From: a virus
Strand: one strand, 5' to 3'
DNA length: 64,000 nucleotides
Virus record (IMG/VR): IMGVR_UViG_3300004463_001172
Coordinates: 32,001 to 96,000 of that record
The notes below the pieces were generated by a model that was not told where the DNA came from, did no database searches, and saw only the letters and a program-made list of their open reading frames with translations. Positions 14,449 to 34,630 of the stretch are shown in pieces. Within the stretch, counting starts at the first letter, position 1. Every line of letters starts with the position of its first letter. The position numbers were made by a program, and so were the translations under genes.

Positions 14449-14518
14449 AGGCTAGTCAAGCGGAGCGGTGCTTAGCTGAGTCAAGCCAAGTCGAGCAAAG
14501 CCCAGCATAGCAAAGGAT
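14449..14518. repeat. Pentamer-period array, 14 units, AGY-NN on the plus strand
   Basis: aggct agtca agcgg agcgg tgctt agctg agtca agcca agtcg agcaa agccc agcat agcaa aggat. Confidence 0.85.
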
Positions 14519-14521
14519 ATT

Positions 14522-14560
14522 ACGTATAGGCTGGCAATCGGTATTTGCTAGCCTATACGT
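14522..14560. terminator. Long hairpin abutting the pentamer array
   Basis: ACGTATAGGCTGGCAA...TTGCTAGCCTATACGT inverted repeat. Confidence 0.6.
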
Positions 14561-14561
14561 T

Positions 14562-15143
14562 TCATGTCCTAGTCCAAATAGCATAAAAAGCACCAAACGG
14601 CTCTACCTTTCGCCCATGGTCATCGGTATCATGATATTTTTCACAGCAAAGACATACCCACTTATCACCATTAAAATCATTTGGCTCCCAGCCACTTAGA
14701 TGATTTTGCCAGTGACCTCCGCCCATACCCCACGCATCTGGACGACCATCATAATTCTGTTCATGAAACCCTAATGGTGTAAACACACAAATTTGTTGTC
14801 GTGCCAGGCGTTCGGCTTCACGGAGTAACCGTCGACCCTCGGGTTTCTCTAAATGCTCAATCACATCACCTGCCACGACCGTATCCACCGACTGATCGGG
14901 AAAGATCCGCATCACCTGATCCCATGTTCCATGTAACAACACATGATGTGGGACATCGGGGCAGGCCTCGCGCAGCCGAGCAATATACGGCGCATACGGC
15001 TCAATGCCGATATGGAGTTGACAGCGCACCAGCTGCTGGGGGCGAATGCCAATGCCCACATCAAGCACTACTGGCGCTGGCCGCAACTGCGCTTGCGCCG
15101 CATCTACCAATGCATCTGCCGAATACCAGGTTATGGCCGACAT
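14562..15143 (-). CDS. Class I SAM-dependent methyltransferase
   Basis: VLDVGIGIRPQ motif I; SVDTVVAGDVIEHL; FTPLG. Confidence 0.85.
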   Translation of the reverse strand: MSAITWYSADALVDAAQAQLRPAPVVLDVGIGIRPQQLVRCQLHIGIEPYAPYIARLREACPDVPHHVLLHGTWDQVMRIFPDQSVDTVVAGDVIEHLEKPEGRRLLREAERLARQQICVFTPLGFHEQNYDGRPDAWGMGGGHWQNHLSGWEPNDFNGDKWVCLCCEKYHDTDDHGRKVEPFGAFYAIWTRT

Positions 15144-15730
15144 CTACCTTTCTCTAGATCCACCAGGCACACATGCATCGGGCGGTCCTGCCGTGCGCCG
15201 AGGCGTGAGGTGAGCCCGGTTAGCAACGGCTCTTTGCGTTCACAGGTGGCCCCGAGCCAATCTTCTAAGACCGGAATACTGACCGATGGCCCATACAGCC
15301 GCTCGACATCACACGTGATCATCAGTCGGCCGCCCGGTTCGACTTGCGCCCACAGATGGTTCAACACGGTCGGATGCCATGCGGGTGGAATCTCTTCCAG
15401 GTAACTAATGGCGAGTACCATCGCAAAGGCTTGGTGAAAGGGCTGACGGATGTCATGCTGACGAAAGTTGGGCATCACTGAAAAGGTTGGCGTGGCCTGA
15501 CTATCGCTATGCAGCACTTGCGGTACGAGAGCTTCGATGGCCTCAGCAAAGGGGCGCTGAAAGGCTTCAAAGCCACACCCGGTATTATGGAGGCTGTGAG
15601 GCTTCACCGCTTCAATGACCGCGAGTGCGTAGGGCCACTCATAGGCCCGTGACCAATCCTGCCACTGTGGGTCAAAGAGGTCATCTGAGCGAAGTAATCG
15701 AAAGGCGTGAATCATGGCATCAGTCGGCAT
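15131..15730 (-). CDS. Methyltransferase-like protein
   Basis: WSRAYEWPY, HNTGCG, ISYLEE, PGGRLMITCD. Confidence 0.7.
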   Translation of the reverse strand: MPTDAMIHAFRLLRSDDLFDPQWQDWSRAYEWPYALAVIEAVKPHSLHNTGCGFEAFQRPFAEAIEALVPQVLHSDSQATPTFSVMPNFRQHDIRQPFHQAFAMVLAISYLEEIPPAWHPTVLNHLWAQVEPGGRLMITCDVERLYGPSVSIPVLEDWLGATCERKEPLLTGLTSRLGARQDRPMHVCLVDLEKGRCRP

Positions 15731-16551
15731 TAATCTTCATAGCTCCCCAGCGGTAATTGGCCCCAGCTCTGGTGGTTGCGTACTACATCTTCCGGACGGC
15801 CGTCATAGGTCGCCCCCGCATGGGGCCATGTGCCCGATTTCGTCCAGAGTGGACAGGGACATCCGCGATAACACAGCGGATCGTGTTGGTCGTGGTATTG
15901 ATGGGCTCCCCAGATATCAGGCGCATTGATGGCATAGACACCTTGGGTCTGTAATCTGACCCACGCATCCTCGTCCTCTGGCCAGGGCTCCGTGTAGCTT
16001 TCATCATATCCGCCAATCTCTAGCAGGCGCTGTTTGTGAATCGCAGCGAGCATCGGCACATGCCAGTAGCTGGAATGATGAAAGGGCGAGACAAATAACT
16101 CCTCAATCCGCGAAAAATCCTGCGTCCAGGGAATATGATCCAGGAGCGCTTCCGTCATTGGTGAATGCACCCGGTAGCAATTGGCGAAGATATACGCCTG
16201 CACGTCTGCATCCGCGAGATAACTGGCAAACAGTTCCAAGGCATTCGGCGCGGCCATGACATCAGCCCCCTGAAAGACGAGGATTTCCGCCTGGGCTCGC
16301 TGAATCCCCACGTTCCAGGCTAATGCTGGGTTGCAGTAATAGGGTCGATGGAGATAGATATAGCGCAGCGGGAAGGCATCTGACTTTCGGGCCTCATCCA
16401 CCACACGCTTGGTGTCATCGGTCGAGCCGTCATCGATCACGATGGCCTCAAAACGGCTGTGTGCGTAGGTCTGCACGCTCAGTGACAAGAGATTCCGTCG
16501 TAGGTGCGCCGCCCGATTAAAGCTTGGAATAATGACGGAAAAGTCCGGCAT
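15730..16551 (-). CDS. GT2 family glycosyltransferase
   Basis: SVIIPSFNR, IDDGSTDD, AWNVGI, IGGYDESY...ED. Confidence 0.92.
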   Translation of the reverse strand: MPDFSVIIPSFNRAAHLRRNLLSLSVQTYAHSRFEAIVIDDGSTDDTKRVVDEARKSDAFPLRYIYLHRPYYCNPALAWNVGIQRAQAEILVFQGADVMAAPNALELFASYLADADVQAYIFANCYRVHSPMTEALLDHIPWTQDFSRIEELFVSPFHHSSYWHVPMLAAIHKQRLLEIGGYDESYTEPWPEDEDAWVRLQTQGVYAINAPDIWGAHQYHDQHDPLCYRGCPCPLWTKSGTWPHAGATYDGRPEDVVRNHQSWGQLPLGSYED

Positions 16552-16988
16552 TACGTTGCGTCCTCCCCCTCTGCTTCCGTCGGTGGCTCCGGGATCGGCA
16601 GGGTCATCGGGTCTGCACTATACTGCGCCTGGCGGGAGCGAAAGAGATTACCGACGACGTTTAATTCATCGGTTACTTGATCGGCCTGGGCTTTAACTTG
16701 CTCTCGGTTCGTCTCAAGCCATTCCTGGATTTCCTGCTGCACCAGCTCCGACGGTTCCACCAGCATCTCTGGGTAGCCATCGGCTTCCAGCGCGTCATAG
16801 GCTTGCACCATCGTATCCATTAGGGCTAAGCGCGTGCGATGGCGGCCGATCTGCGCATTCACTGTGGCCTTGGCCTCATCGCTGATATTCATGGTTAAGA
16901 GGCGTTGCAAGCCATTGAGCTGGGCCAGCATCTGCGCCCGGTCCTGCTCGACGTGCTCATAATTACGTGGGTGGCGCTCCTGCTCCAT
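16551..16988 (-). CDS. Acidic coiled-coil hypothetical protein
   Basis: GGAGGAG RBS; stop overlaps the GT2 start. Confidence 0.7.
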   Translation of the reverse strand: MEQERHPRNYEHVEQDRAQMLAQLNGLQRLLTMNISDEAKATVNAQIGRHRTRLALMDTMVQAYDALEADGYPEMLVEPSELVQQEIQEWLETNREQVKAQADQVTDELNVVGNLFRSRQAQYSADPMTLPIPEPPTEAEGEDAT

Positions 16989-17005
16989 CGTGCACTCCTC
17001 CCGGG

Positions 17006-17326
17006 CTAGGTTCGTCGAATGGTGACTAAGGCGCGTTCGCCGATAATGCGTGCCGTATCCTCGCCATACGCGGCTTTGATCCGGCTCAACTCGGCAATCA
17101 CCATGTTGAGCGCTGCGGCCACATCAGCATCCCGGTCAGGGGGTTCTGGCGCGGCTGGGGCGTCTGGTGTCTCAACCGGCCAATCGAGAGTATCTGTGCT
17201 GAGCGTGGCATCAGGCATGGGTTCCCCATGGCCTACGGCGTGAATCGTGGCGAGGTCTGGTGTCACGCCTTCTGACACCTCTGGTTCATCGCCTTTACTG
17301 CGGTCGCGTGATCCGGGGTCTCTCAT
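17006..17326 (-). CDS. Acidic, Pro-rich hypothetical protein
   Basis: GGAGG RBS; ATGA overlap with the radical SAM stop. Confidence 0.65.
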   Translation of the reverse strand: MRDPGSRDRSKGDEPEVSEGVTPDLATIHAVGHGEPMPDATLSTDTLDWPVETPDAPAAPEPPDRDADVAAALNMVIAELSRIKAAYGEDTARIIGERALVTIRRT

Positions 17327-18654
17327 GAATTCACCTCCGTTAAGGTGTTTGGACATTGTACCGATGGCTGCTTTGTGGCATAAAACGCTTCAATCCAGGC
17401 GAGGAGTTCATCGCGGAGGACCAACGTCTCATCGGTCCACCACGGCAACCTCTGATCGCCGCCTTTCCCTTGTACTCCGTTATGGTACAACTGCTCGTAG
17501 TGCGGTACCCAGCCGAGGTCAATAGCACGCTGGTAGATGGGCGTGCCTGGCAGTGGGATGAGGGTAGAAATCTGTGCGGAATCGGGCTGGGCGTCTTCAA
17601 TCCAGCGCCTCGTGGCTTCCATACTCTGCCGATCATCCCCTTCCATGCCAAAGATGAGATAGGCTTTCACGGCAATGCCCACGTCATGGCAGGCCTGCAC
17701 CGCTTTGGTATTCAGCTCAACCGTATTTTTGCTAATGGCGTCGAGGATCCGCTGGTCTCCGCTTTCAAACCCGAACGAAATGCAATCAATTCCCGCCCGT
17801 TTCATCTCAGGTAACAGATCATAGTGCAACACATTCGCTCGCATGTTGACTCGGAAATGATATGACTCTTTAGCCAACACACGGCAAAACTCTTCCACCC
17901 ACGACCGCTTCAAACCCCAGAGATCATCAACCGCGACAAACCGTTTCAATCCATAGGTACATTCCAGGTCTTGTAGTTCTTCAACCACCAAGCGTACAGA
18001 CCGCACGCGAAGCTTCCGGGCCGCGTCCCCCAATGTCCTGACGCAATATGCGCAATTGAACGGACAGCCTCTTGAGCATAACAGTGTGCTACTGAAGCCG
18101 TTTCCAACTGTCAAATTACTGCAATAACTACTGAGATCCACTAAATCTCTGGCCGGCAGCGGTAACACATCAAGGTTCTGCGGTGCCGACGCATGGAACA
18201 CCCCAGGCGACCCGCCTTCCTGAATCCAGCGCGGGAGCACATGATCGGCTTCCCCGACAAACACGGCGTCAAAGCCATCCTGCAGGCATTCATGCGGTAG
18301 TGCACTGGCATGGGGCCCACCAATAATGATTCTCCAATGTGGATTCTTCCATTTAAGAGCTGTCTGAACGTTGATAGCACTGGAATATTGGGCCGAGGTA
18401 CAGGTCAAACCAAATACTGTATTATCTGGCTGCTCTTCAATCCATGCTGGCAACCTGAGATAGCCTTGTCGGACAAAAGCGTCTGGCATGACCCCGAACT
18501 GTCGTGCGAGAAAGTCATCCCCTGTCATATCCCAGAATGCCACATCTCCACCAGAGGCCCGGACTTCCGCCGCGAGCATGAGTAGCCCTAATGGCGGTGC
18601 TCCCTTATCTGAGACCAAGAACGGCGAACATGGGTTAATAAAAATGATGCGCAA
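17323..18654 (-). CDS. Cobalamin-binding (class B-like) radical SAM protein
   Basis: PPLGLLMLAA, IIGGPHAS, VGEAD, LPARDL, SRGCPFNCAYC, GFESG, PLPGTPIY. Confidence 0.93.
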   Translation of the reverse strand: MRIIFINPCSPFLVSDKGAPPLGLLMLAAEVRASGGDVAFWDMTGDDFLARQFGVMPDAFVRQGYLRLPAWIEEQPDNTVFGLTCTSAQYSSAINVQTALKWKNPHWRIIIGGPHASALPHECLQDGFDAVFVGEADHVLPRWIQEGGSPGVFHASAPQNLDVLPLPARDLVDLSSYCSNLTVGNGFSSTLLCSRGCPFNCAYCVRTLGDAARKLRVRSVRLVVEELQDLECTYGLKRFVAVDDLWGLKRSWVEEFCRVLAKESYHFRVNMRANVLHYDLLPEMKRAGIDCISFGFESGDQRILDAISKNTVELNTKAVQACHDVGIAVKAYLIFGMEGDDRQSMEATRRWIEDAQPDSAQISTLIPLPGTPIYQRAIDLGWVPHYEQLYHNGVQGKGGDQRLPWWTDETLVLRDELLAWIEAFYATKQPSVQCPNTLTEVNS

Positions 18655-18674
18655 TGCTTCTTATCCTCGTTTAG

Positions 18675-19589
18675 TCATGCCAGCGCCTTCGCCACGACGT
18701 CGAGGAACGTGGCACATTGGGTTTGGTACTGGTACTGTTGATGCACCAGTCGATACCCTGTATCCGCGAAGTCCTGATATGCATCTGCCGCCAGTCCCAG
18801 AATCGTTTCCATCTGTGTGGCCAAGGCTTCCGGTGTCTCCCCATACGCGACCCCTCGCCCGATGGGGAAGAGTTCCGGCATGCTAATCGGTTCACTCACC
18901 ACCGGCACGCCACACCCCAAGGCTTCGTACAAGCGGGTCTCGGTATTTGGGCTGCTGGAATAGTGGCAATTGAGCACCACCCGACAGCGGTTGAGGTACT
19001 GCACGAGCGCCGCCCCATAACACCGATCAGCAATCGCATCGGGCCAGGCCCACCGAAACCCGCGTGGCAGGCAGGCGAGTGTATCTTGAATCCACTGAAT
19101 CCGCCGCGCGCTGGCATAGCCATACACACCGATATCGATCTCCTTCTCGACCGCGAGTCGCCGATGAACGGTGGCATCGACCCCACTACTCGGACACCAG
19201 GCCACCCGGCGCGCGCCTAATGCTGTCACCGTGGACAGACAGCAGGAGCAATGGTGCACAACGAGATCAAACGCTGCGGCATTGCGGCTTAGCGCATTGG
19301 CTTTGGCGAGCACCACTTCATCCATTGTTGGCCACTCCGGCGACATGACCTCGGCGTGCCAACAAATCGTGGGGGCTCCCGTGGTCTTGCGGAGGTGCTG
19401 AATCGCCACACGGCTCAAGCCATACCCTTGTGATATGACATTCAGGTCTGCCGGTGGCAGTCCAGTGAGGTCTTCATCACGCATATTGGCAAAGGTGACC
19501 TGATGCCCCAAGGTCTCGAAGCCCCGGTGCATCATGGACTCACAGCCCCACGCAAGATTTGCTGCTTTGCCAATCAGGTTGATCTTCAT
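18675..19589 (-). CDS. GT-B glycosyltransferase, CgeB / Glyco_trans_1_2-like
   Basis: YLNRCRVVLN, TRLYEALGCGVPVVSE. Confidence 0.85.
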   Translation of the reverse strand: MKINLIGKAANLAWGCESMMHRGFETLGHQVTFANMRDEDLTGLPPADLNVISQGYGLSRVAIQHLRKTTGAPTICWHAEVMSPEWPTMDEVVLAKANALSRNAAAFDLVVHHCSCCLSTVTALGARRVAWCPSSGVDATVHRRLAVEKEIDIGVYGYASARRIQWIQDTLACLPRGFRWAWPDAIADRCYGAALVQYLNRCRVVLNCHYSSSPNTETRLYEALGCGVPVVSEPISMPELFPIGRGVAYGETPEALATQMETILGLAADAYQDFADTGYRLVHQQYQYQTQCATFLDVVAKALA

Positions 19590-19762
19590 TTCACTCTCTG
19601 TGCCCGTTTGAGCGCAGGCGTTCGCTGGAGTGCTTCAGCCAAATATTCTGCAACAGGATAAAGATCATCTGAATGCAGCAGATAAATTATCTCTGTGTCT
19701 TCATACGCGGGACGTTTATACGCCGGTAAGCAGAGCTTGAGCCATTCATAGAGTGAGTTCAC
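19586..19762 (-). CDS. Small hypothetical protein between two glycosyltransferases
   Basis: GTG-started VNSLYEWLKLCLP...QRVK fills the gap, with ATGA coupling to the next gene. Confidence 0.45.
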   Translation of the reverse strand: MNSLYEWLKLCLPAYKRPAYEDTEIIYLLHSDDLYPVAEYLAEALQRTPALKRAQRVK

Positions 19763-19769
19763 TAAGTCT

Positions 19770-20876
19770 CTATCCAAGTCCAATCCTCTCCAACCCTGTT
19801 GCGAGCCGCTGGGTAAAGCCCTGCCAGTGGAAGTGCGAGGTGGCTCGTCTGAGCGCCTGCAGGGCTTTCTCATGCACGATGTCATCACACGTGGCCTGGG
19901 CTTCTTGCATGGTCTTCCAAAGGATTTCCGGCCGAATGATCGCTTGCTGGTAACAACTGCCATCCGGGTGTGGCTTGGAACCCTCTGGGTCAATCATCCA
20001 CCCGCAGGACGAATCCACCCACTCATTCATCGGTGCAGCATTGAGGGTGATCACGGGTCGGCCATTGACGAGCGCCTCAATAAGGCTCAACCCTAAACCT
20101 TCCATTTTACTCGGCTGTACCACGACACGCCCTAATCCATAGACCCCTCGCGGCGGTGGATAATCCCCTGATTCCCAGACGATATGTGGTGGGAGGGGCT
20201 GCTCCCAGCCAATGATCTTCACCGCCACCTCTTGGGGGAGTTGGCAATGGATCAACACTTCAGGCGGATTCCCCTCCAGCGGTTGACAGGCCAGCGCCGC
20301 GAGCAGCGTATCCAACCCTTTCCTGGCGTCGATGCCAATCCACCCTTGCGAACTGACAAAATCAAACCGCCGGTCCAGGGTCAGCGTTGAGGCCTCGACC
20401 AAGTGCTCATCCGGCACGCCCCAGCCGATATAGTGTGTCTGGGCCTCCTTCCCCCACTCTTGTAAGAGGGTGTACGCTCGTGCCGTGACACAGAGGAGCA
20501 GGTCATTAAAGCGTAGATAGGGCTTCTGGGGGAAGCTCAGGTAATTATCGATTTGTTGAACCGTTTTGATCCCAGCCTTTTGCAACGTCATAGGGAGCTC
20601 GGCTTGCAGCTCTTCGACAAACACCACCGCCTCAAGTCGGTGAAAACTGGCCCATTGCAAGAGCGCCAACGGTGGAATGACCGCATCGGGATAGTCCGTG
20701 CGGTTCGGCCAGTCCCATTCCCCAGTGGTTTCCCGCATGGGCTGCCCGTAAATCATCCCCTGCCGCACAAACATGAAACACTCGTGATGGAGGTCGACAC
20801 AGGCCCGACGTAGTGTCTGGGTAACATAGGGAACCCCACGCGCAAATGAGGTCGTGACAAATCCAAGCCTCGCCAT
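19770..20876 (-). CDS. GT4 family glycosyltransferase
   Basis: RKGLD, PSKMEGLGLSLIEALVNGRPVI (EX7E motif). Confidence 0.92.
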   Translation of the reverse strand: MARLGFVTTSFARGVPYVTQTLRRACVDLHHECFMFVRQGMIYGQPMRETTGEWDWPNRTDYPDAVIPPLALLQWASFHRLEAVVFVEELQAELPMTLQKAGIKTVQQIDNYLSFPQKPYLRFNDLLLCVTARAYTLLQEWGKEAQTHYIGWGVPDEHLVEASTLTLDRRFDFVSSQGWIGIDARKGLDTLLAALACQPLEGNPPEVLIHCQLPQEVAVKIIGWEQPLPPHIVWESGDYPPPRGVYGLGRVVVQPSKMEGLGLSLIEALVNGRPVITLNAAPMNEWVDSSCGWMIDPEGSKPHPDGSCYQQAIIRPEILWKTMQEAQATCDDIVHEKALQALRRATSHFHWQGFTQRLATGLERIGLG

Positions 20877-22652: not shown

Positions 22653-22655
22653 GCG

Positions 22656-25445: not shown

Positions 25446-27314
25446 CTATATAGTGAGAGAAGAAGCAGAAGTTGATGCAACAAATCCACGATAGTCTAAT
25501 ATTGATAAACCCCATATGTGCCGTATTTTATACGTTATTTTATCTGCGTCCATCATTGCAGATCCACTGACGTTCTCTTGATCGCTCACAAAGATTTCCG
25601 GGTCTTCGTTACCTCTGAAGAATCCGACTTCAAACGTGGGCACGTCCCGAGGGTCAGCAATGAGGTACCATCGGTTTCCGTTCGTCCAATAGGGGATTTG
25701 GACCGGTACCATGCCGAACCGTTGAAACAGGTTGGCATCGTTATCTGTGGTAAATGGCTCTCCCCGTGTGGTTTCAGTAAGCTTCCCTGCCGCTCTCCAG
25801 AGCTGCCGAGGATGAATCAGGAAGCGTGGGGTTAAGCCTAAGAGTTCCACGCTATTGCCATAGGCGGTTTGTCCACCCAAGAGCTGAATCGCGGCGTCGA
25901 GACCATCCGCATTCAGCGGGTTATTGACCGCCAAGTTCGCATGTCCTGTGGTAAATACAGAGGTCGTATCTCCGTCAAACGCCAGGGCAATATTCTGATC
26001 CAACATATCGAAGAACCCACGGAATAAGGTTTGTGCTGCCGCACGGCCTAGACGCTGAGGAATCCGACGAATGACTTGGATGTCGTCGTTCGCCATGGCT
26101 TCCATGGTGATGGTCTCTAGCCCACCACGTTTGACCAGCCGATAGGTGGACTCCTCATCATCAGGCGTCGGCAGTGGTGTGTAGCTGATCCCTTCAGGCA
26201 CGACGGGTAGTACCCCATAGCCCCCGAAGCGGAGCCGGCGTTGCAGCCGGAAATCATTGATGGTACTAATTTCCGAGGTGAGCTGGCGCCATAGCTGCAA
26301 TTCAGGAATGCGATACTCGGCGAGGACACGCCTGGTAATACTGTCCCCCATCATCTGCGCCCAGGTCGTGGTCGAGATCGCTTCTGTTAAGCGGCCATCC
26401 GCCTGTGCTCCATAGCGGCCATGAGAATCGTACTTGCCGCCTTCAATGGGCACCTGCATTTCGCGCATGACTCGTAGCGGATCCCACCGCTTGCCCATCA
26501 TGCGCTCATAGGCTTCTTGGAGCGACCGGAAGCGCTTGACCGCACTTCCATCCTTACCCTTTTGATCTTCACCTGCCCAGAAGCCGTCAAAGGCAGTACA
26601 GAGCTTATCGAACTCGCTCTCGATGATCTTTGCCCGCAGCCGCTCTTGCCCGGGGAGGTAGACTTCCCCATCGCCATTGGTGCCGAGGGGGCCAATCACG
26701 TCCCAGTAATCGTTGATCGCTTCTTCCAAGGCGGCTTCGCTAAAGACCTGCCCCTTGAATTGTTTCTCTAGCTTTTGCTGCGCCTTGGGAGGCAAGCCCG
26801 AGTCCATCAGCTTTTCCTTCAGCATGACGGTACACTCCGCGAGCTTGACCCGATGCTCCCAGCGCTCTTCAATCGCTTCAATGGCGGTTTGGCGGGTTTT
26901 ATTGGTTTGGGAAAGCTGTAAGTCTGCCACGGCTTCCGCCTCATCTTGTGTGGCACAATTGGCAATCAAGTTGCCTTCCTGCAAGACAATCCAGCGATCC
27001 TGGCGGGGTTTCACTTCGATACCGGCTTGCAAGCGGCTGAGATTCGGCGCGACGTCGTCTTCGCTGCGCTTGGCGGGTAGGGTTTCAGGCTTGGCCGATT
27101 CCTTGAGAGACTTCTCGGCTTCGGCAATGGCATCTTCGAGTTTGTCGAGATCAAAGGCTACGTCTTTGAAGGCCTTTTTGAGGGCTCGTTGGGTATCGAG
27201 CGGCAGGCTACTTTCGCGGAGCCGTTCGCTCATCAGCATCTGAGCGCGGAGCGCGTCTTGCTCGGTTTTCATCTGCTGCAACAGCTCTAAGACATTGGTA
27301 TCCGTTCCTGGCAT
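25446..27314 (-). CDS. Major capsid protein (Mu gpT-like, HK97 fold) with N-terminal scaffold-like region
   Basis: DFRLQRRLRFGGYG.LP.V.EG..Y, KRGGLETITMEAMANDD, RIPQRLGRAAAQTL, WYLIADP, YKIRHIWG...DYRG. Confidence 0.92.
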   Translation of the reverse strand: MPGTDTNVLELLQQMKTEQDALRAQMLMSERLRESSLPLDTQRALKKAFKDVAFDLDKLEDAIAEAEKSLKESAKPETLPAKRSEDDVAPNLSRLQAGIEVKPRQDRWIVLQEGNLIANCATQDEAEAVADLQLSQTNKTRQTAIEAIEERWEHRVKLAECTVMLKEKLMDSGLPPKAQQKLEKQFKGQVFSEAALEEAINDYWDVIGPLGTNGDGEVYLPGQERLRAKIIESEFDKLCTAFDGFWAGEDQKGKDGSAVKRFRSLQEAYERMMGKRWDPLRVMREMQVPIEGGKYDSHGRYGAQADGRLTEAISTTTWAQMMGDSITRRVLAEYRIPELQLWRQLTSEISTINDFRLQRRLRFGGYGVLPVVPEGISYTPLPTPDDEESTYRLVKRGGLETITMEAMANDDIQVIRRIPQRLGRAAAQTLFRGFFDMLDQNIALAFDGDTTSVFTTGHANLAVNNPLNADGLDAAIQLLGGQTAYGNSVELLGLTPRFLIHPRQLWRAAGKLTETTRGEPFTTDNDANLFQRFGMVPVQIPYWTNGNRWYLIADPRDVPTFEVGFFRGNEDPEIFVSDQENVSGSAMMDADKITYKIRHIWGLSILDYRGFVASTSASSLTI

Positions 27315-27381
27315 GTACGGCGATCCTCATGCATCGAGGACTGGTCAGCGACTGACAATGTGGCGCTCCGCTGACGAGCGC

Positions 27382-27418
27382 AGGGTAAAGAAAGGGGAGG
27401 GGCCTCTCCCTCTTCCCT
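27382..27418 (-). terminator. Terminator-like hairpin between protease and capsid genes
   Basis: GGGAGAGGCCCCTCCCC followed by TTTCTTT on the minus strand. Confidence 0.5.
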
Positions 27419-27480
27419 AGTCACTACTTATGGATGTCTTCTCTTCCATTCTATGCCGTCCATGCTATAATCTTAGATAG

Positions 27481-27550
27481 CCAATGAGATGAGCTGCGGC
27501 ATGATGGCACAAACTGAGACATCTCATGATGAGACCTTACAAGCTAAGAC
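27481..27550. repeat. Degenerate pentamer-period array, 14 units, mostly GAY-NN on the plus strand
   Basis: ccaat gagat gagct gcggc atgat ggcac aaact gagac atctc atgat gagac cttac aagct aagac; preceded by extended -10 TGCTATAAT at 27463-27471. Confidence 0.65.
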
Positions 27551-29046
27551 CTGTTACCTTCTGGGATCACCGCGAGAATCCTGCTGGAGACGGCTCGTTT
27601 CTCCGCTGTGGTACCTGGAAGGTCATCGAGTGCTTCCTTGATCGTCATCTCAACTGTCATCCGCCGTAAATCTCTTCGTAGCCCTTCAATGAGTGCCATC
27701 TGTGTTTGCTCAGCTTCCCGCTCACGTTCAGCCTGGGCAATCGCTACACTTGCGACGATTCGTAGGAACTGTCCACCAGCTGCGGCGTGGGTTACGAGAT
27801 CGACACTATTGACCTGACGAATGGCATCGACATGCAAGACTTGCTTTCCACCCGATTCTGTATGATGGGCGTCCCCAGATGAATCAATACTCAGCCCGTA
27901 AGGGAAGACGTACCCTTTCTCCGCTAGGTAGCGTAAATTGTTGCGAAGCCAATCGGCGGAAGGTAAGAGCCGTAATGTCCCCACGAGTCGAGAGCCCTCA
28001 ATCATTGGTTGGGTGAGCACACCAATCAGGTCACGGCTATAACCTTTTGGATTGACACGATACTCTTCATCACTCAGATGATCAAAGACCGGCTTTCCCT
28101 TTAAAGTCCGGTCATACGCATAACAGCGTGCTCCTTCAAACAATGGCGCCGCTTTCCGCAGCACATCGAGTGAATACAGCCGATCATTCTTCGATATGCC
28201 TGCTTCGATAATCGCCACTTTCCACTCGCGGCCATCTGCACCAGACTCTTGCAGAATCGTCATCGTTTCATGGAGCGCTAACGGTTCGCCGTCGATATAG
28301 GATTCTGTAATACTGACCGTCTCGGCTGGCTCTCCATGATACCCTTGCAACATTTGCTGTTGCGGGTCATTTGCTTGGGCTTCTTCAGCTTGTTTCTGCT
28401 GTTCGGCCTGAATCTCTTTGGGTGACTGCCCGCGTAACCGCTTCAGAATATCTAAGACCGTATCAAACTCTTGATAATCCGAATCTTTATGGCGTTGTCC
28501 GGCCTCTTGAAGCGCATCCTCGACCTTTATGGCTTCGATCGCTTCTTGTATCGTATCGTACCGTACCGATTCCTCCATCTCCTGTGCCGCACCAATCTTT
28601 GGCACCAAGCGATTAATCAGGCTCGTCAAGGCATCACGCTCGCCCGAGGTCATTTCTAATTCCCGGCGTCCCAGGAGGTTCAGTGCTGAGTAAATGGCTT
28701 CCTTGTAGCACTCTTCATGGTGCTGCCTGACAGGTTCAGGCATGTCATACTGTTCGGTGAGCGGAACAGGATCTACCGCTGTCAGTGCCGCGACTGTTGC
28801 ATCCACCCATGCTTGCGCCGCCGCATCTAAGATCACATCTGGCTCGGACTCTTTGATCCGGTGCCACTTTCCCTCTTTGTCTTGTTCGTAGAGCTTCTTC
28901 ACGGCGGCGAATGCCACCGCAAATTGTCGAGACTCATCATCATACGACTTCGCCGCACTGTTAAAGGCCGCCATAAAAATACGCTTAGCATGCGCTGGCA
29001 TATCCTTTGTGCTGGCAGGAAGCTCTTTGACGCTTTTATAAGGCAT
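27544..29046 (-). CDS. Prohead protease with N-terminal ChaB domain
   Basis: MPYKSVKELP...P.HAKRIFMAAFNSA...AFAAVKKLY...GKW (ChaB); IIEAGISKN..YS, DH, GLSID, VDLVTHAAAGG (protease). Confidence 0.85.
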   Translation of the reverse strand: MPYKSVKELPASTKDMPAHAKRIFMAAFNSAAKSYDDESRQFAVAFAAVKKLYEQDKEGKWHRIKESEPDVILDAAAQAWVDATVAALTAVDPVPLTEQYDMPEPVRQHHEECYKEAIYSALNLLGRRELEMTSGERDALTSLINRLVPKIGAAQEMEESVRYDTIQEAIEAIKVEDALQEAGQRHKDSDYQEFDTVLDILKRLRGQSPKEIQAEQQKQAEEAQANDPQQQMLQGYHGEPAETVSITESYIDGEPLALHETMTILQESGADGREWKVAIIEAGISKNDRLYSLDVLRKAAPLFEGARCYAYDRTLKGKPVFDHLSDEEYRVNPKGYSRDLIGVLTQPMIEGSRLVGTLRLLPSADWLRNNLRYLAEKGYVFPYGLSIDSSGDAHHTESGGKQVLHVDAIRQVNSVDLVTHAAAGGQFLRIVASVAIAQAEREREAEQTQMALIEGLRRDLRRMTVEMTIKEALDDLPGTTAEKRAVSSRILAVIPEGNRS

Positions 29047-29049
29047 ACG

Positions 29050-29178: not shown

Positions 29179-29204
29179 GAGCGGCCTCCTTACAGGCTAG
29201 ACAT

Positions 29205-29262
29205 AAAAAAAGGGGCGATGCGTCCTGATAACTCAGGAAAACATCGCCCCTCGGTTCTTCCG
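29205..29262 (-). terminator. Leader: small CGGAAGAACCG hairpin plus strong intrinsic terminator ahead of the head operon
   Basis: AGGGGCGATG...CATCGCCCCT stem followed by a T tract. Confidence 0.75.
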
Positions 29263-29275
29263 TTAGGCGTGAAAG

Positions 29276-29455
29276 CTAATCGAATTTAATCGTTTGGGTC
29301 ACTTCCTCGACAAATGCCGGCAGTCCATCCCGAACCACCAGCCGCTGAATCGTGCCGAACCGGAGCTGCCGCACTAGTGCTAAGAGCTTCTGCTCCGCGG
29401 GATGCAGCCCCAAGACTTGCAATTCTAGCGGAATCTCGATTGGACACGGCTTCAG
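29276..29455 (-). CDS. Small YezD/DUF2292-like protein
   Basis: Hand translation ...LHPAEQKLLALVRQLRFGTIQRLVVRDGLPAFVEEVTQTIKFD; putative CTG start after AAGGGG, start uncertain. Confidence 0.65.
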   Translation of the reverse strand: MKPCPIEIPLELQVLGLHPAEQKLLALVRQLRFGTIQRLVVRDGLPAFVEEVTQTIKFD

Positions 29456-29520
29456 TGGATATCCCCTTTAGTAAAGAGGTATAACCGTTAATTTGTCAAG
29501 GAGTATTTTCAACAATACTC

Positions 29521-30444: not shown

Positions 30445-30474
30445 CGAGTTTAACCCTTGAGCCCACTGAATGTG

Positions 30475-31101: not shown

Positions 31102-31173
31102 CTAGTTATATTCACAGCAAACCAGTAGAATAACCGTAATCTCATGCGCGTTGTACCGCACACTCACTGGCCT

Positions 31174-32887
31174 TTATCGCCCCTCACGTCGATAAGCCTG
31201 CTCTCGCCGCCACGCGGCTTCCATTTGCCGAAAGAGGGGTTGCGATACTAAGACATAGTCACCGACGGGCGTCCCAATGACACTGCTGGCATCCATCACC
31301 TCGACAAAGATCGGCCAGCCGAATTGCTGCGGGGGGTCCAAGAGGACTTGCGTGCGCTCGCTCGCGGCGGCCACGACCGTCAGGCGCCGCAGCCATAAGG
31401 GCTCCCCATCCAACTGAATGCTTGTGCGGGTTCCATAATTGCCAATCTGGATCCGGATGCATCCCTCAGCCATTATTCCCTCGGTCATGACGTAAAGAGT
31501 GTGTCGAGATCACCTTCCCCCAACCGGCTCAGATCTGGATTATATGCCACCAACCGGTTCCATTCGGGTCCTGGGCGTACAGCATCGGCTTTCATCAGGA
31601 GCCGTAAGTCTTCCTTCGCGTCTGGTCCCAATGGCGGTCCTATCGGGCGTACCTCCTCCCAGCGTGGCCCTACCTGAAGGATGCCTACCGCCAGGCAGTA
31701 ATGAAGGAGGAGCATCCCCTGATATGGAATATGGGGTATCGGCGTCTTCCACGTCGGATTCATCGCCACTCCTCTGCATAGTGCATAGAGCCTAGCCCTT
31801 CACATGCATCTCGCGTCAGGCGTCTTGGTGAGCGTGCAGGCCTTCTGGAGCTGATTCACGATCCGCAACAGGAACGTCACATCTTCCGCATAACATTGTG
31901 GCCAATTGCCATCGTCCGCTAACGCTCGTGCCTGAATCGCTAAGGCCTTTATCTCAGTTAAGCGCTGTACTTTATCCTTCAAACGGCCTATGACTAATGG
32001 CTGCATAATACGTTTTCCTGCGGAGGTCATCCCATTATTCCGAGCCATCGTCCACGTCCTCTTCATCCCGGACATAGCCAAGTGCATTAAACTCGTCATC
32101 AGATTCTCTACTATGTGGGCAGTGGGTGTGTGCCGGTCACTCCCACCGTGACCCCTTCCCGCGAGCCATCTTCGCTTGCCCCTAACGCCTTGACCAGAAC
32201 GGTGATTAGTCCCTCTCCCGGCTGAGGGAGCGCCTCAAGGTTCTGGGGATCATCTGGTGCATAGCGCCGCGGCTGGGAATCAATGGTGATGTCTACATAG
32301 ACACCAGTTCTCCATCGTGTGATCATATAGACATGGCCTACATAGCCATTGACCGTGACCTCACACCCTTCACGAAGGTCCTGAAGCCATCTCGAGGTTG
32401 GCTTGAACGCCAACTGAAGGCTTCCTGCAATCATGTGACTCATTCTAGGTTCTCTTCATACCGGATATACCCGAGTGCATTAAACTCGTCAGCCGTTAGT
32501 GTCCGGCGGACACTATTATAGACTGGCGGTTCGGTCGATAGTATGAGTTGTCCAACTGACGCATCCGTCGGGCCACTGATCCATGTGATCCGCATGGGGC
32601 GATAGGGTGGCTTGGGCAGGCAATAAAGGTCACTGGTGCCTTGGCCAGATAGCCATCGTTGTAAGATCTCATCATAGCTCACGGGAGTCATGATAGGCTC
32701 CTTTGCACTAACGCCCACTGTTCTGGTGTGAGGTCGGTCTCATCAACATAGAAGACTAATTCCCACCCTAGCGTCTCCCCAGGTGTCTGTTCGAGGCACA
32801 ATCGACCTGGGACCGTCCACGTCGGCCCAACTGCAGGCGTATGGAAGGTCACCAAGGCTTCAGGGTCACGGATCACGAATCGATGGA
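31174..32887 (-). other. Run of about six small hypothetical genes between MuF and head genes
   Basis: Closely packed or coupled ORFs 31174-31488, 31485-31769, 31800-32099, 32111-32443, 32440-32718, 32688-32936. Confidence 0.55.
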
Positions 32888-32901
32888 GCATTCGATCCCC
32901 C

Positions 32902-33354
32902 TCAGAACGGCACATCATAAGGTGCGATCTCAACACTCAGCCGCCCATGATCCATCTCAGTGGTTTCCTCCCAGGCCCGTTTTAAGCGACGATAGGGCGA
33001 TAACTGACACCAGTCACAATGACAGGAATCCGCGCTTTCCTGCTCGGTATCCCCGTCATTTTTTGCCACTATTCCTGCCGCTGTTGATATCGTACAGGCC
33101 TTGGCTGGAGCCGGTTCAGACTGGAATATCGCGGAAAAGTTCGCGGAATGATGTGATGGGGATGCCTCCGCGTTATGTTCCGCGATATTCCGCGTTATTT
33201 TCCGCGATATTTTCCGCGATTGATGGGTCGTTAAATGCCGGTGGAGCGCATCGGCCGAGACCTGATACCGCTGCGCAATCTCTTTCGCAGTACCGCGTGC
33301 CCGCTCCATCGTAGCTCGATTCGGATGTCGACAAATGGAGCATGGGCGTCCCAT
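32902..33354 (-). CDS. CxxC-H Zn-binding HTH protein
   Basis: MGRPCSICRHPNR...IAQRYQVSADALHRHLTTH; short 12-bp repeats near 33180-33220. Confidence 0.6.
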   Translation of the reverse strand: MGRPCSICRHPNRATMERARGTAKEIAQRYQVSADALHRHLTTHQSRKISRKITRNIAEHNAEASPSHHSANFSAIFQSEPAPAKACTISTAAGIVAKNDGDTEQESADSCHCDWCQLSPYRRLKRAWEETTEMDHGRLSVEIAPYDVPF

Positions 33355-33633
33355 CCCGTTCCCTCTCTCACACCCGCTAGGTGACCCGATCTCGGGTGAC
33401 CCTGGCTCTTGGTATGTCCCAAGGCCTAATCGTGTCACCTGGCGTCTCTATGACCATATACTCTACGTCATTCCCGATGCATACTTTGCGCGTGTGCGCT
33501 ATTCATACATAGCGCTATTGCGCAAAGTATGCATTCTCTCTGGGTATCTGACACCCACACCATCTCTCTAACATATTGTTCATAGAGAGAATAATCGACT
33601 ATTTCCCATAATATGTATTCTGTTACGTCGTCC

Positions 33634-34545
33634 TTACTCCCCGTCGAGGGCCGGTCGCAAGGATTCGACATCCACGACGCTTCGGCATCGACAGCTAATG
33701 GCGAGTGCGGCCGGTAATCTAGGATCGTGAGGCCCCTTCGCTTGATAGGTCGCTCCATCCGTATCCTGCAAGGTAAAGTCGCCCGTCAGCACCGGACGTT
33801 GGGCTAACAACGCCGGTCGGCGGTGTGCCGGTCTCACCCGCGCATCGCCCGCATTGAGCCATTGCTTGCGCGGGGTGAGTTCCGGAAAGACCTGAGAGGC
33901 TCGCTGCTGTAGTTGCTCCTGTCGGCTCTGGGTGGCCAAGCTGAACGACCGATTGAGTTCCGTGCGGGTTATCACCTCCGCACGTGTGGCGATAGACCCG
34001 AAGCGTCCCGCCGCATCAGCTTGGGTCCGCAGCACCTCGGCCACCTCACGCTGGATCTGAAACGGGGTTCGCCCGCCAAGTGTCCCTAATTGTAGTTCGG
34101 TTGAAATTTTTCGGATGGCATCAGCACTCATGTTCGTAATAAGCTCTGCTTGATACCCCTGAAGAATACTGACGAGCCTTGGTTCAATGCTCGGAATCGC
34201 CGCCATGATATCTAAACCAACAGCCACGAGCGGCTGATCAACACTTGTCAGACCGAAGTCCCACATGTGGCGTGATTGCTCATCAAAATAACGATGGTAC
34301 GTGCGGGAAAATTCGGCCATAGTTTCTTCAACTGATCGTTGTAGTCGTGGCAGGAATTGGGCAAGATAGCTGCTTTCATCAACTTCACTGATGGCATCGA
34401 TAATCCGCCGCCTCGCATCGGCCAATAGTTGTAAAACTCGTTTAACGGATGCCTCTTCAAGGTTATCAACCTCCTTAAGCAGCGCTGCCAATGTATCAGC
34501 ATAACGCTGCTCAGGAGATTGAGCCGCAAGTAAGCGGTTAGTCAA
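33634..34545 (-). CDS. Minor head morphogenesis protein (MuF / SPP1 gp7 family)
   Basis: RAEVITRTELNR, KQW...D.RVRP.H, PHDPRLPA...ISCRC; follows the portal. Confidence 0.9.
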   Translation of the reverse strand: MTNRLLAAQSPEQRYADTLAALLKEVDNLEEASVKRVLQLLADARRRIIDAISEVDESSYLAQFLPRLQRSVEETMAEFSRTYHRYFDEQSRHMWDFGLTSVDQPLVAVGLDIMAAIPSIEPRLVSILQGYQAELITNMSADAIRKISTELQLGTLGGRTPFQIQREVAEVLRTQADAAGRFGSIATRAEVITRTELNRSFSLATQSRQEQLQQRASQVFPELTPRKQWLNAGDARVRPAHRRPALLAQRPVLTGDFTLQDTDGATYQAKGPHDPRLPAALAISCRCRSVVDVESLRPALDGE

Positions 34546-34550
34546 AGTAA

Positions 34551-34630
34551 AACCCCTAGCTCACCTCACCATAACTAACCATACCCCACCCCAACTAACC
34601 CAACCTCGCCAAAGCCGACCGCACCAACCC
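34551..34630 (-). repeat. Pentamer-period array, 16 units, GGT-NN on the minus strand
   Basis: gggtt ggtgc ggtcg gcttt ggcga ggttg ggtta gttgg ggtgg ggtat ggtta gttat ggtga ggtga gctag gggtt. Confidence 0.88.

What the first reader, a model, noticed from the sequence alone, without database searches (positions are those of the whole stretch)
14449..34630. Three dispersed 5-nt-period arrays (conserved triplet + variable dinucleotide): candidate guide-RNA system
Seen: three intergenic tracts (14449-14518, 27481-27550, 34551-34630), each 14-16 pentamers long. Three positions are constrained (AGY, GAY or GGT) and two are free. The free dinucleotides differ between units and between arrays, so these are not slippage microsatellites. 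Each array adjoins an expression signal (promoter, hairpin or RHH gene). Inference: they are small RNAs in which the triplet is a protein-binding scaffold and the NN pairs spell a gapped target. From memory (verify), this resembles the GGY/NN guide architecture reported for viral RAMP/Cas7-like VIPR systems. Here the arrays are scattered through the morphogenesis operon, use different triplets, and I see no RAMP-like gene in the window, so the effector is elsewhere, lost or a different protein.
Basis: partly seen in the sequence, partly recalled or inferred. Interest (0 to 1): 0.88.

Follow-up and report, generated by a model that had tools for sequence, protein, structure and literature searches.

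The report
Scattered VIPR guide RNAs in a provirus
Two of the three five-letter-repeat tracts are real; one is a stand-alone guide RNA of the provirus's own CRISPR-like VIPR system that spells a conserved stretch of rival phages' vipr genes but not its own, a kind of weapon already described in 2026 preprints.

Summary
Arrays 1 (14449-14518) and 3 (34556-34635) are real. They are the two strongest period-5 signals in the window, above every shuffle. Array 2 (27481-27550) is borderline and not guide-like.

The same 109-kb provirus does carry one 32 kb upstream of the window. It is a 189-aa Vipr (E=3e-25, full length, to the solved SUSP1 Vipr), followed by two canonical YNNGG vrRNAs.

Array 3 has 16 GGY-NN units on the minus strand. 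It sits in an AT-rich promoter-RHH-array cassette that a close relative lacks between its portal and MuF genes. Read by the published 1-nt-skip rule, it matches vipr genes of other VIPR loci in frame at codons ~46-62. The best match is 27/32 and 19 loci hit the same site, against a null maximum of 23. Its own vipr scores 18/32. It is therefore a solo anti-vipr guide.

Array 1 has 14 AGY-NN units plus a 16-bp hairpin on the plus strand. It is also a lineage-specific insertion. Its scaffold is deviant, and I found no target and no partner protein.

VIPR and solo vipr-targeting guides are already in print, and this scan has logged VIPR in more than 360 genomes. This is a new member of a known kind with some unusual features.

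The parts
34556..34635 (-). Array 3: solo vrRNA guide region with 16 GGY-NN pentamers. The first unit overlaps the RHH stop codon TGA (34633-34631).
   Evidence: Period-5 power 5.77 and 4.90 bits. Units are listed. Its NN under the 1-nt-skip rule match rival vipr genes at 27/32, against a null maximum of 23.
34536..34555 (-). 3' end and tail of array 3 (GGG + GTTTTACTTTGACTAACC). It contains an SD-like GGGG and the TTG (34545) from which the MuF-like ORF now starts.
   Evidence: The 15-nt core GGTTTTACTTTGACT recurs at 13/15 after the array-like tract at contig 104841-104900 and nowhere else in the contig. The tail of canonical vrRNA A is similar, GGGTTTTTCTTGCC.
34631..34786 (-). Small ribbon-helix-helix (CopG/Arc-like) gene of 51 aa, probably leaderless. 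It lies between the cassette promoter and array 3.
   Evidence: Pfam RHH_1 E=1.1e-4 and PHROG Arc-like repressor. Translation.
34793..34822 (-). Cassette promoter TTGACG-N18-TATAAT. Its spacer holds GTACAGTCT, an operator-like word shared with the contig 104.8-kb locus.
   Evidence: Matches 11 of 12 consensus positions. GTACAGT[CT]T occurs only 3 times in the contig, all in these two loci.
34827..34861 (-). Decayed remnant of the original MuF 5' end (…LLIREALTPQELY*), left upstream of the inserted cassette.
   Evidence: Alignment with relatives L005 and L006, where MuF directly follows the portal gene.
14449..14518 (+). Array 1: 14 AGY-NN pentamers (13 AG, 11 AGY), antisense to the flanking methyltransferase and radical-SAM genes.
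   Evidence: Period-5 power 6.12 and 4.75 bits. Units. Absent from 8 relatives of the radical-SAM gene. The only true AG-type array in 713 kb scanned, against 132 GG-type arrays.
14522..14560 (+). Hairpin directly after array 1 (16-bp stem, 7-nt loop) followed by UUU. It is the candidate 3' tail or terminator of the plus-strand RNA.
   Evidence: RNA fold is -52.8 kcal/mol (z=-5.4) on the plus strand and -42 kcal/mol (z=-3.0, interrupted stem) on the minus strand.
14355..14384 (+). Weak promoter-like site TTGACG-N18-TATATG, antisense inside the radical-SAM 5' coding region, about 65 nt upstream of array 1. Inferred only.
   Evidence: Read from the sequence. It fails the tool's criterion. The array-less relative L029 has TTGGCG…CGAGGT at this place.
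27481..27550 (+). Array 2: borderline 5-nt periodicity downstream of TGCTATAAT. Not shown to belong to the system.
   Evidence: Fourier power 1.56, which is background. Column information 3.43 bits against a shuffle maximum of 3.36. Low-diversity words. No Rfam match and no gapped target.

Best explanation
The window lies in a 109-kb provirus that carries a VIPR system (Viral Interference Programmable Repeat). The system consists of a Vipr RAMP protein and two canonical YNNGG vrRNAs at contig 1-810, which is 32 kb before the window.

Array 3 is a third, stand-alone vrRNA gene placed 66 kb from vipr. It belongs to a horizontally acquired cassette (promoter, small RHH repressor gene, 16 GGY-NN units, U-rich tail) that was inserted into the 5' end of the MuF-like head gene.

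By analogy with SUSP1, Vipr protomers would polymerise on the RNA, hide each GGY and present the NN pairs. Those pairs bind double-stranded DNA while skipping every third base. Decoded this way, the guide reads codon positions 1-2 of a conserved Vipr motif (E-L-A-R-L-E-W-Y-G-G-x-Y-x-D-E) in other phages' vipr genes. The provirus's own vipr has diverged at those letters. The likely job is therefore to silence the vipr gene of a competing phage or prophage while sparing self.

Array 1 is a second inserted element with the same 3+2 grammar but an AGY scaffold, and it ends in a terminator-like hairpin on the opposite strand. It is most likely a variant vrRNA-like small RNA, either a guide or a decoy. 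Its partner and target are unknown. Array 2 is probably not part of the system.

Shown here: the arrays, the Vipr homology, the two insertions and the gapped in-frame matches. Inferred: transcription, loading onto Vipr and silencing.
For: Vipr: phmmer against PDB finds 36pp_D 'SUSP1 Vipr protein' at E=3e-25, aligned over 8-187 of the query and 6-188 of the chain. The residues that read GGY in SUSP1 (H17, R138, W178, R179, K33) are conserved, and D177 is E here (with paper 10.64898/2026.04.26.720927 section 5).

Canonical arrays: two YNNGG arrays of 22 and 19 units start right after the vipr stop. The same layout appears in most of the 70 related vipr loci.

Array 3 target: with a 1-nt skip, scores are 27/32 (L075), 26/32 (L078) and 25/32 in three loci. 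In 19 loci the score is 23 or more. Every inspected hit lies 139-148 nt into its vipr gene. The three I aligned (L075, L078, L031) read in frame, with the skipped base at the wobble position. The unit-permuted null over 547 kb has mean 20.9 and maximum 23 in 300 trials. Skips of 0, 2 and 3 give 21/32, which equals the null.

Self-sparing: the provirus's own vipr scores 18/32, and there is no self-target anywhere on the contig.

Cassette: in relative L005 (portal 81% identical) MuF directly follows the portal gene. The cassette has 45.9% GC against 55-59% in its flanks. Its promoter matches 11 of 12 positions.

Array 1: the periodicity is as strong as in array 3. It is missing in all 8 relatives. 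The hairpin is better on the plus strand.
Against: There is no expression or binding data. No perfect target for array 3 exists in what I could search: the best is 84%, and an exact 10-unit core finds nothing in IMG/VR.

Array 3 uses GGT, whereas the provirus's own vipr-adjacent arrays use GG(C/A). It may therefore be loaded by a rival's Vipr rather than its own.

Array 1 has A at the position that SUSP1 Vipr reads as G1 through H17 and D177, and the first VIPR preprint reports that perturbing the GGY motifs abolished silencing. No AG-type array lies next to any of the 70 vipr genes examined. No target was found in the contig, in 84 loci, or in IMG/VR with exact cores. No consensus promoter was found.

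No relative carries an orthologous array, so the test 'scaffold conserved, NN variable' could not be made.
Confidence: 0.75

Rival explanations
1. Array 3 is a real anti-vipr guide, but it is not used by the provirus's own Vipr. It is made to be loaded by the rival's Vipr, so the rival silences its own vipr gene. This is the 'turn the rival's weapon on itself' logic proposed for VIPR-null phages.
For: Its GGT scaffold differs from the GG(C/A) scaffold of the two arrays next to the provirus's own vipr. It sits in a foreign, AT-rich cassette. The October 2026 preprint proposes this logic for solo guides.
Against: GGT is the canonical GGY that SUSP1 Vipr accepts. The provirus's own Vipr keeps the GGY-reading residues. 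The own vipr also differs at the guide-read letters (18/32), and that difference matters only if self-targeting were a risk.
Confidence: 0.2
2. Array 1 is not a VIPR RNA. It is either a cis element of the methyltransferase/radical-SAM mRNA (minus strand: hairpin followed by RCT-NN repeats) or the binding track of a different oligomeric RNA-binding protein. The second case would resemble TRAP, which binds (G/U)AG triplets spaced by 2-3 nt (my own knowledge of B. subtilis TRAP).
For: It has NAG every 5 nt in 13 of 14 units. The scaffold is not GGY. No VIPR-type target was found. It lies exactly between two co-oriented genes. No consensus promoter exists on the plus strand.
Against: There is no TRAP (PF02081) on the contig. 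The provirus has a VIPR system and arrays with the same 3+2 grammar. The hairpin is perfect only as plus-strand RNA and is followed by U's there. A cyanobacterial vipr locus (L017) has YNNTG units with hairpin tails, so non-GG scaffolds do occur in VIPR. The preprint lists YNNNG-type vrRNAs.
Confidence: 0.25
3. Array 1 is a decoy or anti-VIPR RNA. It mimics the vrRNA scaffold and soaks up or poisons a Vipr, its own or a rival's with different scaffold taste, rather than guiding it to a DNA target.
For: The A-for-G change at the G1 position is systematic, not random decay: 13/14 units against about 8% AG units in ordinary arrays. No target was found. RNA mimics of guide scaffolds are known for CRISPR (the Racr RNAs, mentioned in the abstract of PMC13687109).
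Against: This is pure inference with no data on binding. The absence of a target may only reflect the small sequence space I could search with mismatches.
Confidence: 0.12
4. The arrays are chance or compositional periodicities, or DNA-level repeats such as protein-binding iterons, with no RNA-guide role.
For: Array 2 behaves like this: borderline statistics and repeated or inverted words.
Against: Arrays 1 and 3 exceed all shuffles by a wide margin. Array 3 decodes to a conserved vipr motif only under the published skip rule.
Confidence: 0.04

Closest known systems
Type II VIPR system of Escherichia phage SUSP1 (Vipr + vrRNAs; bioRxiv 10.64898/2026.04.26.720920 and 10.64898/2026.04.26.720927)
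   Same: The Vipr homologue aligns over its full length at E=3e-25 and keeps the GGY-reading residues. vrRNAs are built of YNNGG units directly beside vipr. The 1-nt-skip, wobble-phased match falls in a protein-coding gene of a mobile element. There is no self-target.
   Different: No vap gene is visible, because the provirus record is cut at the vipr start codon. The tails are short and U-rich, with no predicted pseudoknot. The third scaffold base of the provirus's own arrays is C or A, although SUSP1's pocket excludes purines. Further arrays lie 46 and 66 kb away inside the morphogenesis operon.
Solo (orphan) vrRNAs of F5 satellites and of VIPR-null SUSP1-family phages, some aimed at vipr (bioRxiv 10.64898/2026.10.15.759431)
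   Same: It is a stand-alone guide away from any vipr gene. It is predicted to hit vipr coding sequence. The match to self is lower than the match to non-self.
   Different: Here the carrier is VIPR-positive. The guide is not a remnant of a deleted VIPR locus. It rides in a promoter-RHH-guide cassette inserted between the portal and MuF genes. The lineage is environmental and far from Enterobacteriaceae phages.
Alternative vrRNA repeat types (NNNGG, YNNNG, NNNNG) and hammerhead-interspersed arrays reported for other VIPR types (methods and fig. S17-S19 legends of 10.64898/2026.04.26.720920)
   Same: Array 1 (YNNAG) formally fits YNNNG. L017, a cyanobacterial vipr locus, shows YNNTG units with hairpin or CUGAUGAG-containing spacers.
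   Different: In those systems the variant repeats lie next to a Vipr of a matching type. Here the only Vipr on the contig sits next to GG-type arrays.
Phage morons (promoter-gene-terminator units inserted between conserved phage genes; my own knowledge)
   Same: The array 3 cassette has its own promoter and a lower GC content. It sits between two genes that are adjacent in a close relative.
   Different: Its cargo includes a guide-RNA gene, and the insertion replaced the start of the downstream head gene.
TRAP-(G/U)AG RNA recognition in Bacillus (my own knowledge)
   Same: NAG triplets spaced by two free bases, repeated 13-14 times, as in array 1.
   Different: No TRAP gene is present. The setting is a phage, and a VIPR system is present.

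Membership tests
VIPR system (Vipr + vrRNA) | A Vipr protein: a minimal RAMP with RRM core, G-loop and thumb, homologous to described Viprs | tested here: met
   Contig 1-570 (outside the window) matches PDB 36pp_D 'SUSP1 Vipr protein' at E=3e-25 over the full length. The G-loop reads IGCGEWRPKFGRF. It has 71 homologues, and 70 related loci were fetched. There is only one copy on the contig.
VIPR system (Vipr + vrRNA) | vrRNA made of tandem 5-nt units with a conserved GGY and two free bases (4 or more units, typically 9-16) | tested here: met
   Met for array 3, which has 16 units, 11 GGY and 15 GNY, and for the two vipr-adjacent arrays. Not met in the strict sense for array 1, which is AGY in 11 of 14 units and fits only the looser YNNNG class. 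Not met for array 2.
VIPR system (Vipr + vrRNA) | Target recognition by the 1-nt-skip rule (NNxNNx…), with skipped bases on codon wobble positions of mobile-element genes and at least ~80% NN match | tested here: met
   Array 3 scores 27/32 (84%) and 26/32 (81%) in frame on rival vipr genes, against a null maximum of 23. Other skip lengths stay at null level. Arrays 1 and 2 and the vipr-adjacent arrays A and B gave nothing above null in the sequences held.
VIPR system (Vipr + vrRNA) | No self-targeting at 80% NN match or more | tested here: met
   Best self scores are within the shuffled-guide null for all guides. The provirus's own vipr scores 18/32 for array 3.
VIPR system (Vipr + vrRNA) | Conserved 3' tail after the repeat tract (a pseudoknot in the SUSP1 clade) | tested here: inconclusive
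   Array 3, array A and the contig-104.8-kb tract share a U-rich motif GG(G)TTTT(W)YTTTG. No significant structure is predicted. Array 1 instead has a 16-bp hairpin.
VIPR system (Vipr + vrRNA) | Scaffold conserved and NN hypervariable among homologous vrRNAs of related elements | tested here: inconclusive
   Relatives of the flanking genes (L005, L006, L029, L079-L085) lack both arrays altogether. No orthologous array was available for comparison.
VIPR system (Vipr + vrRNA) | ~100-nt small RNAs that co-purify with Vipr and repress transcription | not testable with these tools
   This needs small-RNA sequencing, pull-down and reporter assays.
Solo/orphan vrRNA aimed at vipr (Oct 2026 preprint) | A vrRNA with no adjacent vipr or vap, whose NN code matches vipr of other elements better than any self sequence | tested here: met
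   Array 3 lies 66 kb from vipr. It scores 23-27/32 on non-self vipr in 19 loci and 18/32 on self.
TRAP-type triplet-repeat RNA | A TRAP (TrpBP) oligomer gene together with (G/U)AG repeats | tested here: not met
   PF02081 is not found on the contig, while the control genomes ring. The repeats are NAG, and only 6 of the 13 NAG triplets are GAG or TAG.
CRISPR-Cas | CRISPR repeats with spacers and cas genes (RAMPs of Pfam PF03787 and others) | tested here: not met
   No PF03787 match on the contig. No Rfam family in the window. The tandem-repeat finder shows no CRISPR-like array.

The most novel reading that the evidence does not exclude
Guide-RNA genes of VIPR travel between phages as small self-contained cassettes (promoter, RHH regulator, guide, tail that supplies a new start for the gene behind). 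One provirus also keeps guides with different scaffold 'dialects' (GG-C/A, GGT, AGY). At least the AGY array would be tuned to a Vipr other than its own, either to hijack or to jam a competitor's effector.
Probability: 0.2. Interest if true: 0.65.

Novelty: new member of a known kind. Interest (0 to 1): 0.42.

Why it matters
This gives an environmental, non-enterobacterial example of VIPR warfare between phages. A VIPR-positive provirus carries an extra guide aimed at a conserved stretch of other phages' vipr genes, and its own vipr differs at exactly the letters the guide reads (R to K, W to F, Y to F). That is the signature expected of an arms race with self/non-self discrimination.

The guide sits in a mobile-looking promoter-RHH-guide cassette inside the head-gene operon. 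This suggests how guides spread, and it means that searches restricted to the neighbourhood of vipr will miss them.

The AGY array is a concrete test case for how strict scaffold recognition by Vipr really is.

None of this changes the known picture of VIPR. It extends it.

Tried and rejected
1. D/E correlation. I saw an apparent link between Asp or Glu at the SUSP1 D177 position and non-G scaffolds. It was an artefact of my array caller's register, for example GGA-NN arrays in L048 and staggered arrays in L068. I dropped it.

2. Exact gapped-pattern scans of IMG/VR. I tried a 10-unit core of array 3 and 11- and 9-unit cores of array 1. All gave no hits. These scans allow no mismatch, so they are weak negatives.

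3. Self-targets and targets in held sequence. I scanned the contig and 84 fetched loci for arrays A, B, 1, 2 and the 104.8-kb tract at skips 0-3, and with sliding 11-unit sub-guides. Nothing rose above the shuffled-guide nulls.

4. Relatives. Vipr as a single query in viral contigs found none; an alignment of homologues was needed. The RHH protein found no relative in viral contigs.

5. Host. The only isolate relative of the portal is Microcystis phage Mae-JY22 at 35% identity. No portal relative turned up in 401 sampled cyanobacterial genomes. The host remains unresolved.

6. Other effectors. I found no second Vipr, no CRISPR RAMP and no TRAP on the contig.

7. Rfam. Nothing in the window.

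9. RiPP precursor. An 18-codon ORF lies in the gap before the radical-SAM gene on the minus strand. I considered it and set it aside, because it has no ribosome-binding site and coding would not explain a 5-nt period.

Full report
**1. The observation**

I read the three tracts directly. I then scanned the whole window for 5-nt periodicity.

With a 70-nt Fourier measure, the two highest peaks of the 64-kb window are 14450-14519 (power 6.12) and 34555-34624 (5.77). The background mean is 0.75, and the maximum over 30 Markov shuffles is 4.22. No other period from 3 to 11 reaches these values. A column-information statistic over 14 units gives 4.75 and 4.90 bits, against shuffle maxima with mean 2.56 and maximum 3.36.

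Array 3 reads on the minus strand as 16 units: GGTGA GGGTT GGTGC GGTCG GCTTT GGCGA GGTTG GGTTA GTTGG GGTGG GGTAT GGTTA GTTAT GGTGA GGTGA GCTAG. Array 1 reads on the plus strand as 14 units, 13 of which begin AG and 11 of which are AGY. Each array has 9 different dinucleotides in the free positions.

Tandem Repeats Finder does not see either array, so they are not slippage repeats.

Array 2 is different. Its Fourier power is 1.56 and its purine/pyrimidine-coded power is 1.14, both within background. Only the information statistic (3.43 bits) edges past the highest of 20 shuffles. In its best register, the signal comes from a few recurring and inverted words (ATGAG, GAGAC, TG/CA) rather than from a fixed triplet with free pairs.

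**2. The surroundings**

The window is bases 32001-96000 of a single 109,136-bp IMG/VR provirus record that CheckV estimates as 86% complete. The genes around the arrays are phage morphogenesis genes on the minus strand:

- portal, 34862-36388
- a 51-aa ribbon-helix-helix protein, 34631-34786
- a MuF-like head protein, 33634-34545
- a capsid/protease protein, 25446-27314
- a methyltransferase, 14562-15143
- a radical-SAM enzyme, 13326-14435

**3. The effector**

A scan of the whole contig showed that the strongest pentamer arrays lie outside the window, at contig 571-680 (22 units) and 715-809 (19 units). They are textbook YNNGG, and they start right after the stop codon of a 189-aa ORF at contig 1-570.

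That ORF matches the solved 'SUSP1 Vipr protein' (PDB 36pp_D) at E=3e-25 over its whole length. The structural preprint names the residues that read the GGY motif (H17, R138, W178, R179) and the skip-base contact (K33). All are conserved here, and D177 is Glu.

Pfam has no model for the protein. It has 71 homologues in the large protein collection. Among 70 related loci from genomes and viral contigs, YNNGG arrays beside the gene are the rule.

There is one vipr on the contig. I found no distant paralogue with a profile HMM at full sensitivity, no CRISPR RAMP and no TRAP. The record starts at the vipr ATG, so any vap gene upstream is cut off.

**4. What VIPR is**

This comes from the papers, not from memory. 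VIPR systems were described in 2026 (bioRxiv 10.64898/2026.04.26.720920). A Vipr RAMP protein binds vrRNAs of 9-16 YNNGG units followed by a 3' tail. The NN pairs recognise double-stranded DNA while skipping one base between pairs. In natural targets the skipped base usually falls on the codon wobble position. Targets are competing mobile elements, and the outcome is transcriptional silencing.

The structural paper shows one protomer per repeat and how G1, G2 and Y3 are held. A third preprint (10.64898/2026.10.15.759431) describes solo vrRNAs in satellites and in 346 VIPR-null phages. Some of these are predicted to hit vipr itself, with lower self than non-self scores.

**5. Array 3 is a solo guide against rival vipr genes**

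Under the GGY-NN convention its 16 NN read GA.TT.GC.CG.TT.GA.TG.TA.GG.GG.AT.TA.AT.GA.GA.AG. I scanned 547 kb of fetched loci on both strands with a 1-nt skip.

The best sites are L075:4139 (27/32), L078:4130 (26/32), and L021, L030 and L031 (25/32). In 19 loci the best site in the whole locus scores 23 or more. Every one of the 15 top sites I inspected lies 139-148 nt into its vipr gene.

The null tests are clear. Three hundred unit-permuted guides reach at most 23, and base-permuted guides at most 24. Skips of 0, 2 and 3 give 21/32, which is the null level.

In the three sites I aligned (L075, L078, L031) the pairs fall on codon positions 1-2 and the skipped base on the wobble. The guide spells E-[F/L]-A-R-[F/L]-E-W-Y-G-G-[I/M]-Y-[I/M]-D-E, and the targets read EELARLEW(F/H/Y)(G/A)GLYL…. 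Among homologous proteins, P0020 (…ELARLEWYGGLYL…) fits best.

The provirus's own vipr reads EEMAKIEFFASVYLSDG there and scores 18/32. That is the lowest class in the family. No other place on the contig is a target.

An exact 10-unit core has no hit in IMG/VR, so the true, perfectly matched rival is not in that collection.

**6. Array 3 rides in an inserted cassette**

In L005 and L006 (portal 81% identical) the MuF gene follows the portal gene directly. In the window, about 300 nt are inserted after codon ~17 of MuF. In order, they are:

- a promoter TTGACG-N18-TATAAT matching 11 of 12 positions
- the RHH gene, which starts about where transcription would start
- the array, whose first unit overlaps the RHH stop codon
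- a tail GGGGTTTTACTTTGACTAACC

The old MuF 5' end survives upstream as a decayed remnant whose ATG has become ATA. MuF now starts from the TTG inside the tail, preceded by GGGG. The cassette has 45.9% GC, against 58.6% for the portal gene and 55.4% for MuF.

A second locus outside the window (contig 104841-104900) shares four blocks with the cassette in the same order: TTGACGT, GTACAGTCT, TGGTGAGGT and GGTTTTAYTTTGA. It also has about 12 mostly AG-type pentamers directly after its promoter. It may be a short sister element. Its two GTACAGTYT repeats could equally be operator sites.

**7. Array 1**

It is as periodic as array 3, but its scaffold is AGY and it lies on the strand opposite to its neighbours.

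It is followed at once by a hairpin with a perfect 16-bp stem and UUU. The fold is -52.8 kcal/mol (z=-5.4) as plus-strand RNA. On the minus strand the stem is interrupted and the fold is -42 kcal/mol.

The whole 120-nt element is missing in all eight relatives that carry the radical-SAM gene. In those relatives the upstream gene abuts or overlaps it.

A promoter-like TTGACG-N18-TATATG lies about 65 nt upstream, antisense in the radical-SAM coding region. The array-less relative has TTGGCG…CGAGGT there.

Several points argue against array 1 being an ordinary vrRNA. The A replaces G1, which SUSP1 Vipr reads specifically. In 713 kb of VIPR neighbourhoods there are 132 GG-type arrays of 8 or more units, and apart from array 1 the only AG call (in L048) is a register artefact of GGA-NN units. 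I found no target by any skip rule in the contig, in 84 loci or in IMG/VR with exact cores.

Other points argue for a VIPR link. The grammar is identical and a VIPR system is present on the same element. The first preprint reports YNNNG-type vrRNAs. A cyanobacterial vipr locus (L017) has YNNTG units with hairpin or CUGAUGAG-containing spacers.

I rate 'variant vrRNA-like small RNA (guide or decoy)' at about one half. A non-VIPR RNA or cis element comes in at about one quarter.

**8. Array 2**

It has a good extended -10 (TGCTATAAT, 27463-27471) pointing into it. But it has no robust periodicity, no free dinucleotides, no Rfam match and no gapped target. I do not count it as part of the system.

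**9. Mechanism**

Shown: the arrays, the Vipr homology, the two insertions, and the in-frame gapped match to rival vipr together with the spared self.

Inferred from the SUSP1 work: the cassette promoter drives an RHH-array transcript. The vrRNA part is bound by Vipr protomers, one per unit. The filament invades a rival's vipr gene at codons ~46-62 and blocks its transcription, which disarms the competitor's VIPR.

It is open whether the provirus's own Vipr or the rival's Vipr loads this GGT-type RNA, because the provirus's own vipr-adjacent arrays use GG(C/A).

**10. Novelty**

VIPR, its skip rule, solo guides and vipr-targeting guides are all in print. The notes of this scan list VIPR findings in more than 360 genomes. 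These include an orphan guide against vipr (e1-199284) and a solo guide in a VIPR-positive phage (e1-5727173). First-stage notes on this same genome had already flagged the Vipr gene, the RHH cassette and the AGY array, but nobody had followed them up.

New here:

- the target assignment for array 3, with self-sparing
- a VIPR-positive carrier of an anti-vipr guide
- the promoter-RHH-guide cassette and its insertion history
- a clean AGY array with a hairpin tail

This is a new member of a known kind with some variant features. I rate it of moderate interest.

Noticed in passing
contig 104841-104900 (outside the window; L002:11705-11764), with promoter at L002:11669-11706: This is an array-like tract of about 12 mostly AG-type pentamers right after a TTGACG promoter. 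It ends in a tail that is 13/15 identical to array 3's tail. It lies upstream of an excisionase-type HTH ORF (L002:11773-12048). It contains two GTACAGTYT repeats that also occur in the array 3 cassette promoter, so they may be operators for one regulator.
   Followed up: partly
contig 1-810 (outside the window; L001:1-810): The provirus's own vipr-adjacent arrays use GGC or GGA as scaffold, with A in about a third of units. SUSP1 Vipr is reported to exclude purines at that position. The pocket residues differ here (M72 to N, and the G-loop reads IGCGEW).
   Followed up: no
window 27315-27543 and flanking ORFs 27544-29046 and 25446-27314: One PHROG family (phrog_29592, 893 positions) covers both ORFs in sequence. 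A protease/scaffold-capsid gene that is one piece elsewhere is therefore two ORFs here. They are separated by 229 nt that hold array 2 and a G+C-rich terminator-like hairpin (about 27379-27423).
   Followed up: no
window 11190-20876: A cluster of glycosyltransferase, radical-SAM and methyltransferase genes sits inside the morphogenesis operon. Array 1 fills its only sizeable intergenic gap.
   Followed up: no
L017:6899-7296 (Cyanobacteria bacterium P01_C01_bin.120): This vipr locus has arrays built of YNNTG units. They are separated by hairpins and CUGAUGAG-containing spacers, which fits the hammerhead-interspersed arrays mentioned in the first VIPR preprint.
   Followed up: no
L048:2023-3486 (IMGVR_UViG_3300025902_000113): This vipr locus has arrays that read GGA-NN, with a purine as the third scaffold base, on both sides of the gene.
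   Followed up: no
window 832-1035 and 1464-1703: These are 21/42-nt tandem repeats inside coding sequence (7- or 14-residue protein repeats). They cause strong period-7 signals in the periodicity scans.
   Followed up: no
contig 148-194 (own vipr codons 50-65): The provirus's own Vipr and its closest relative (P0002) read MAKIEFFAS where most of the family reads MARIEWYAS/GG. The changed residues are those whose codons array 3 reads, which is consistent with escape from such guides.
   Followed up: partly
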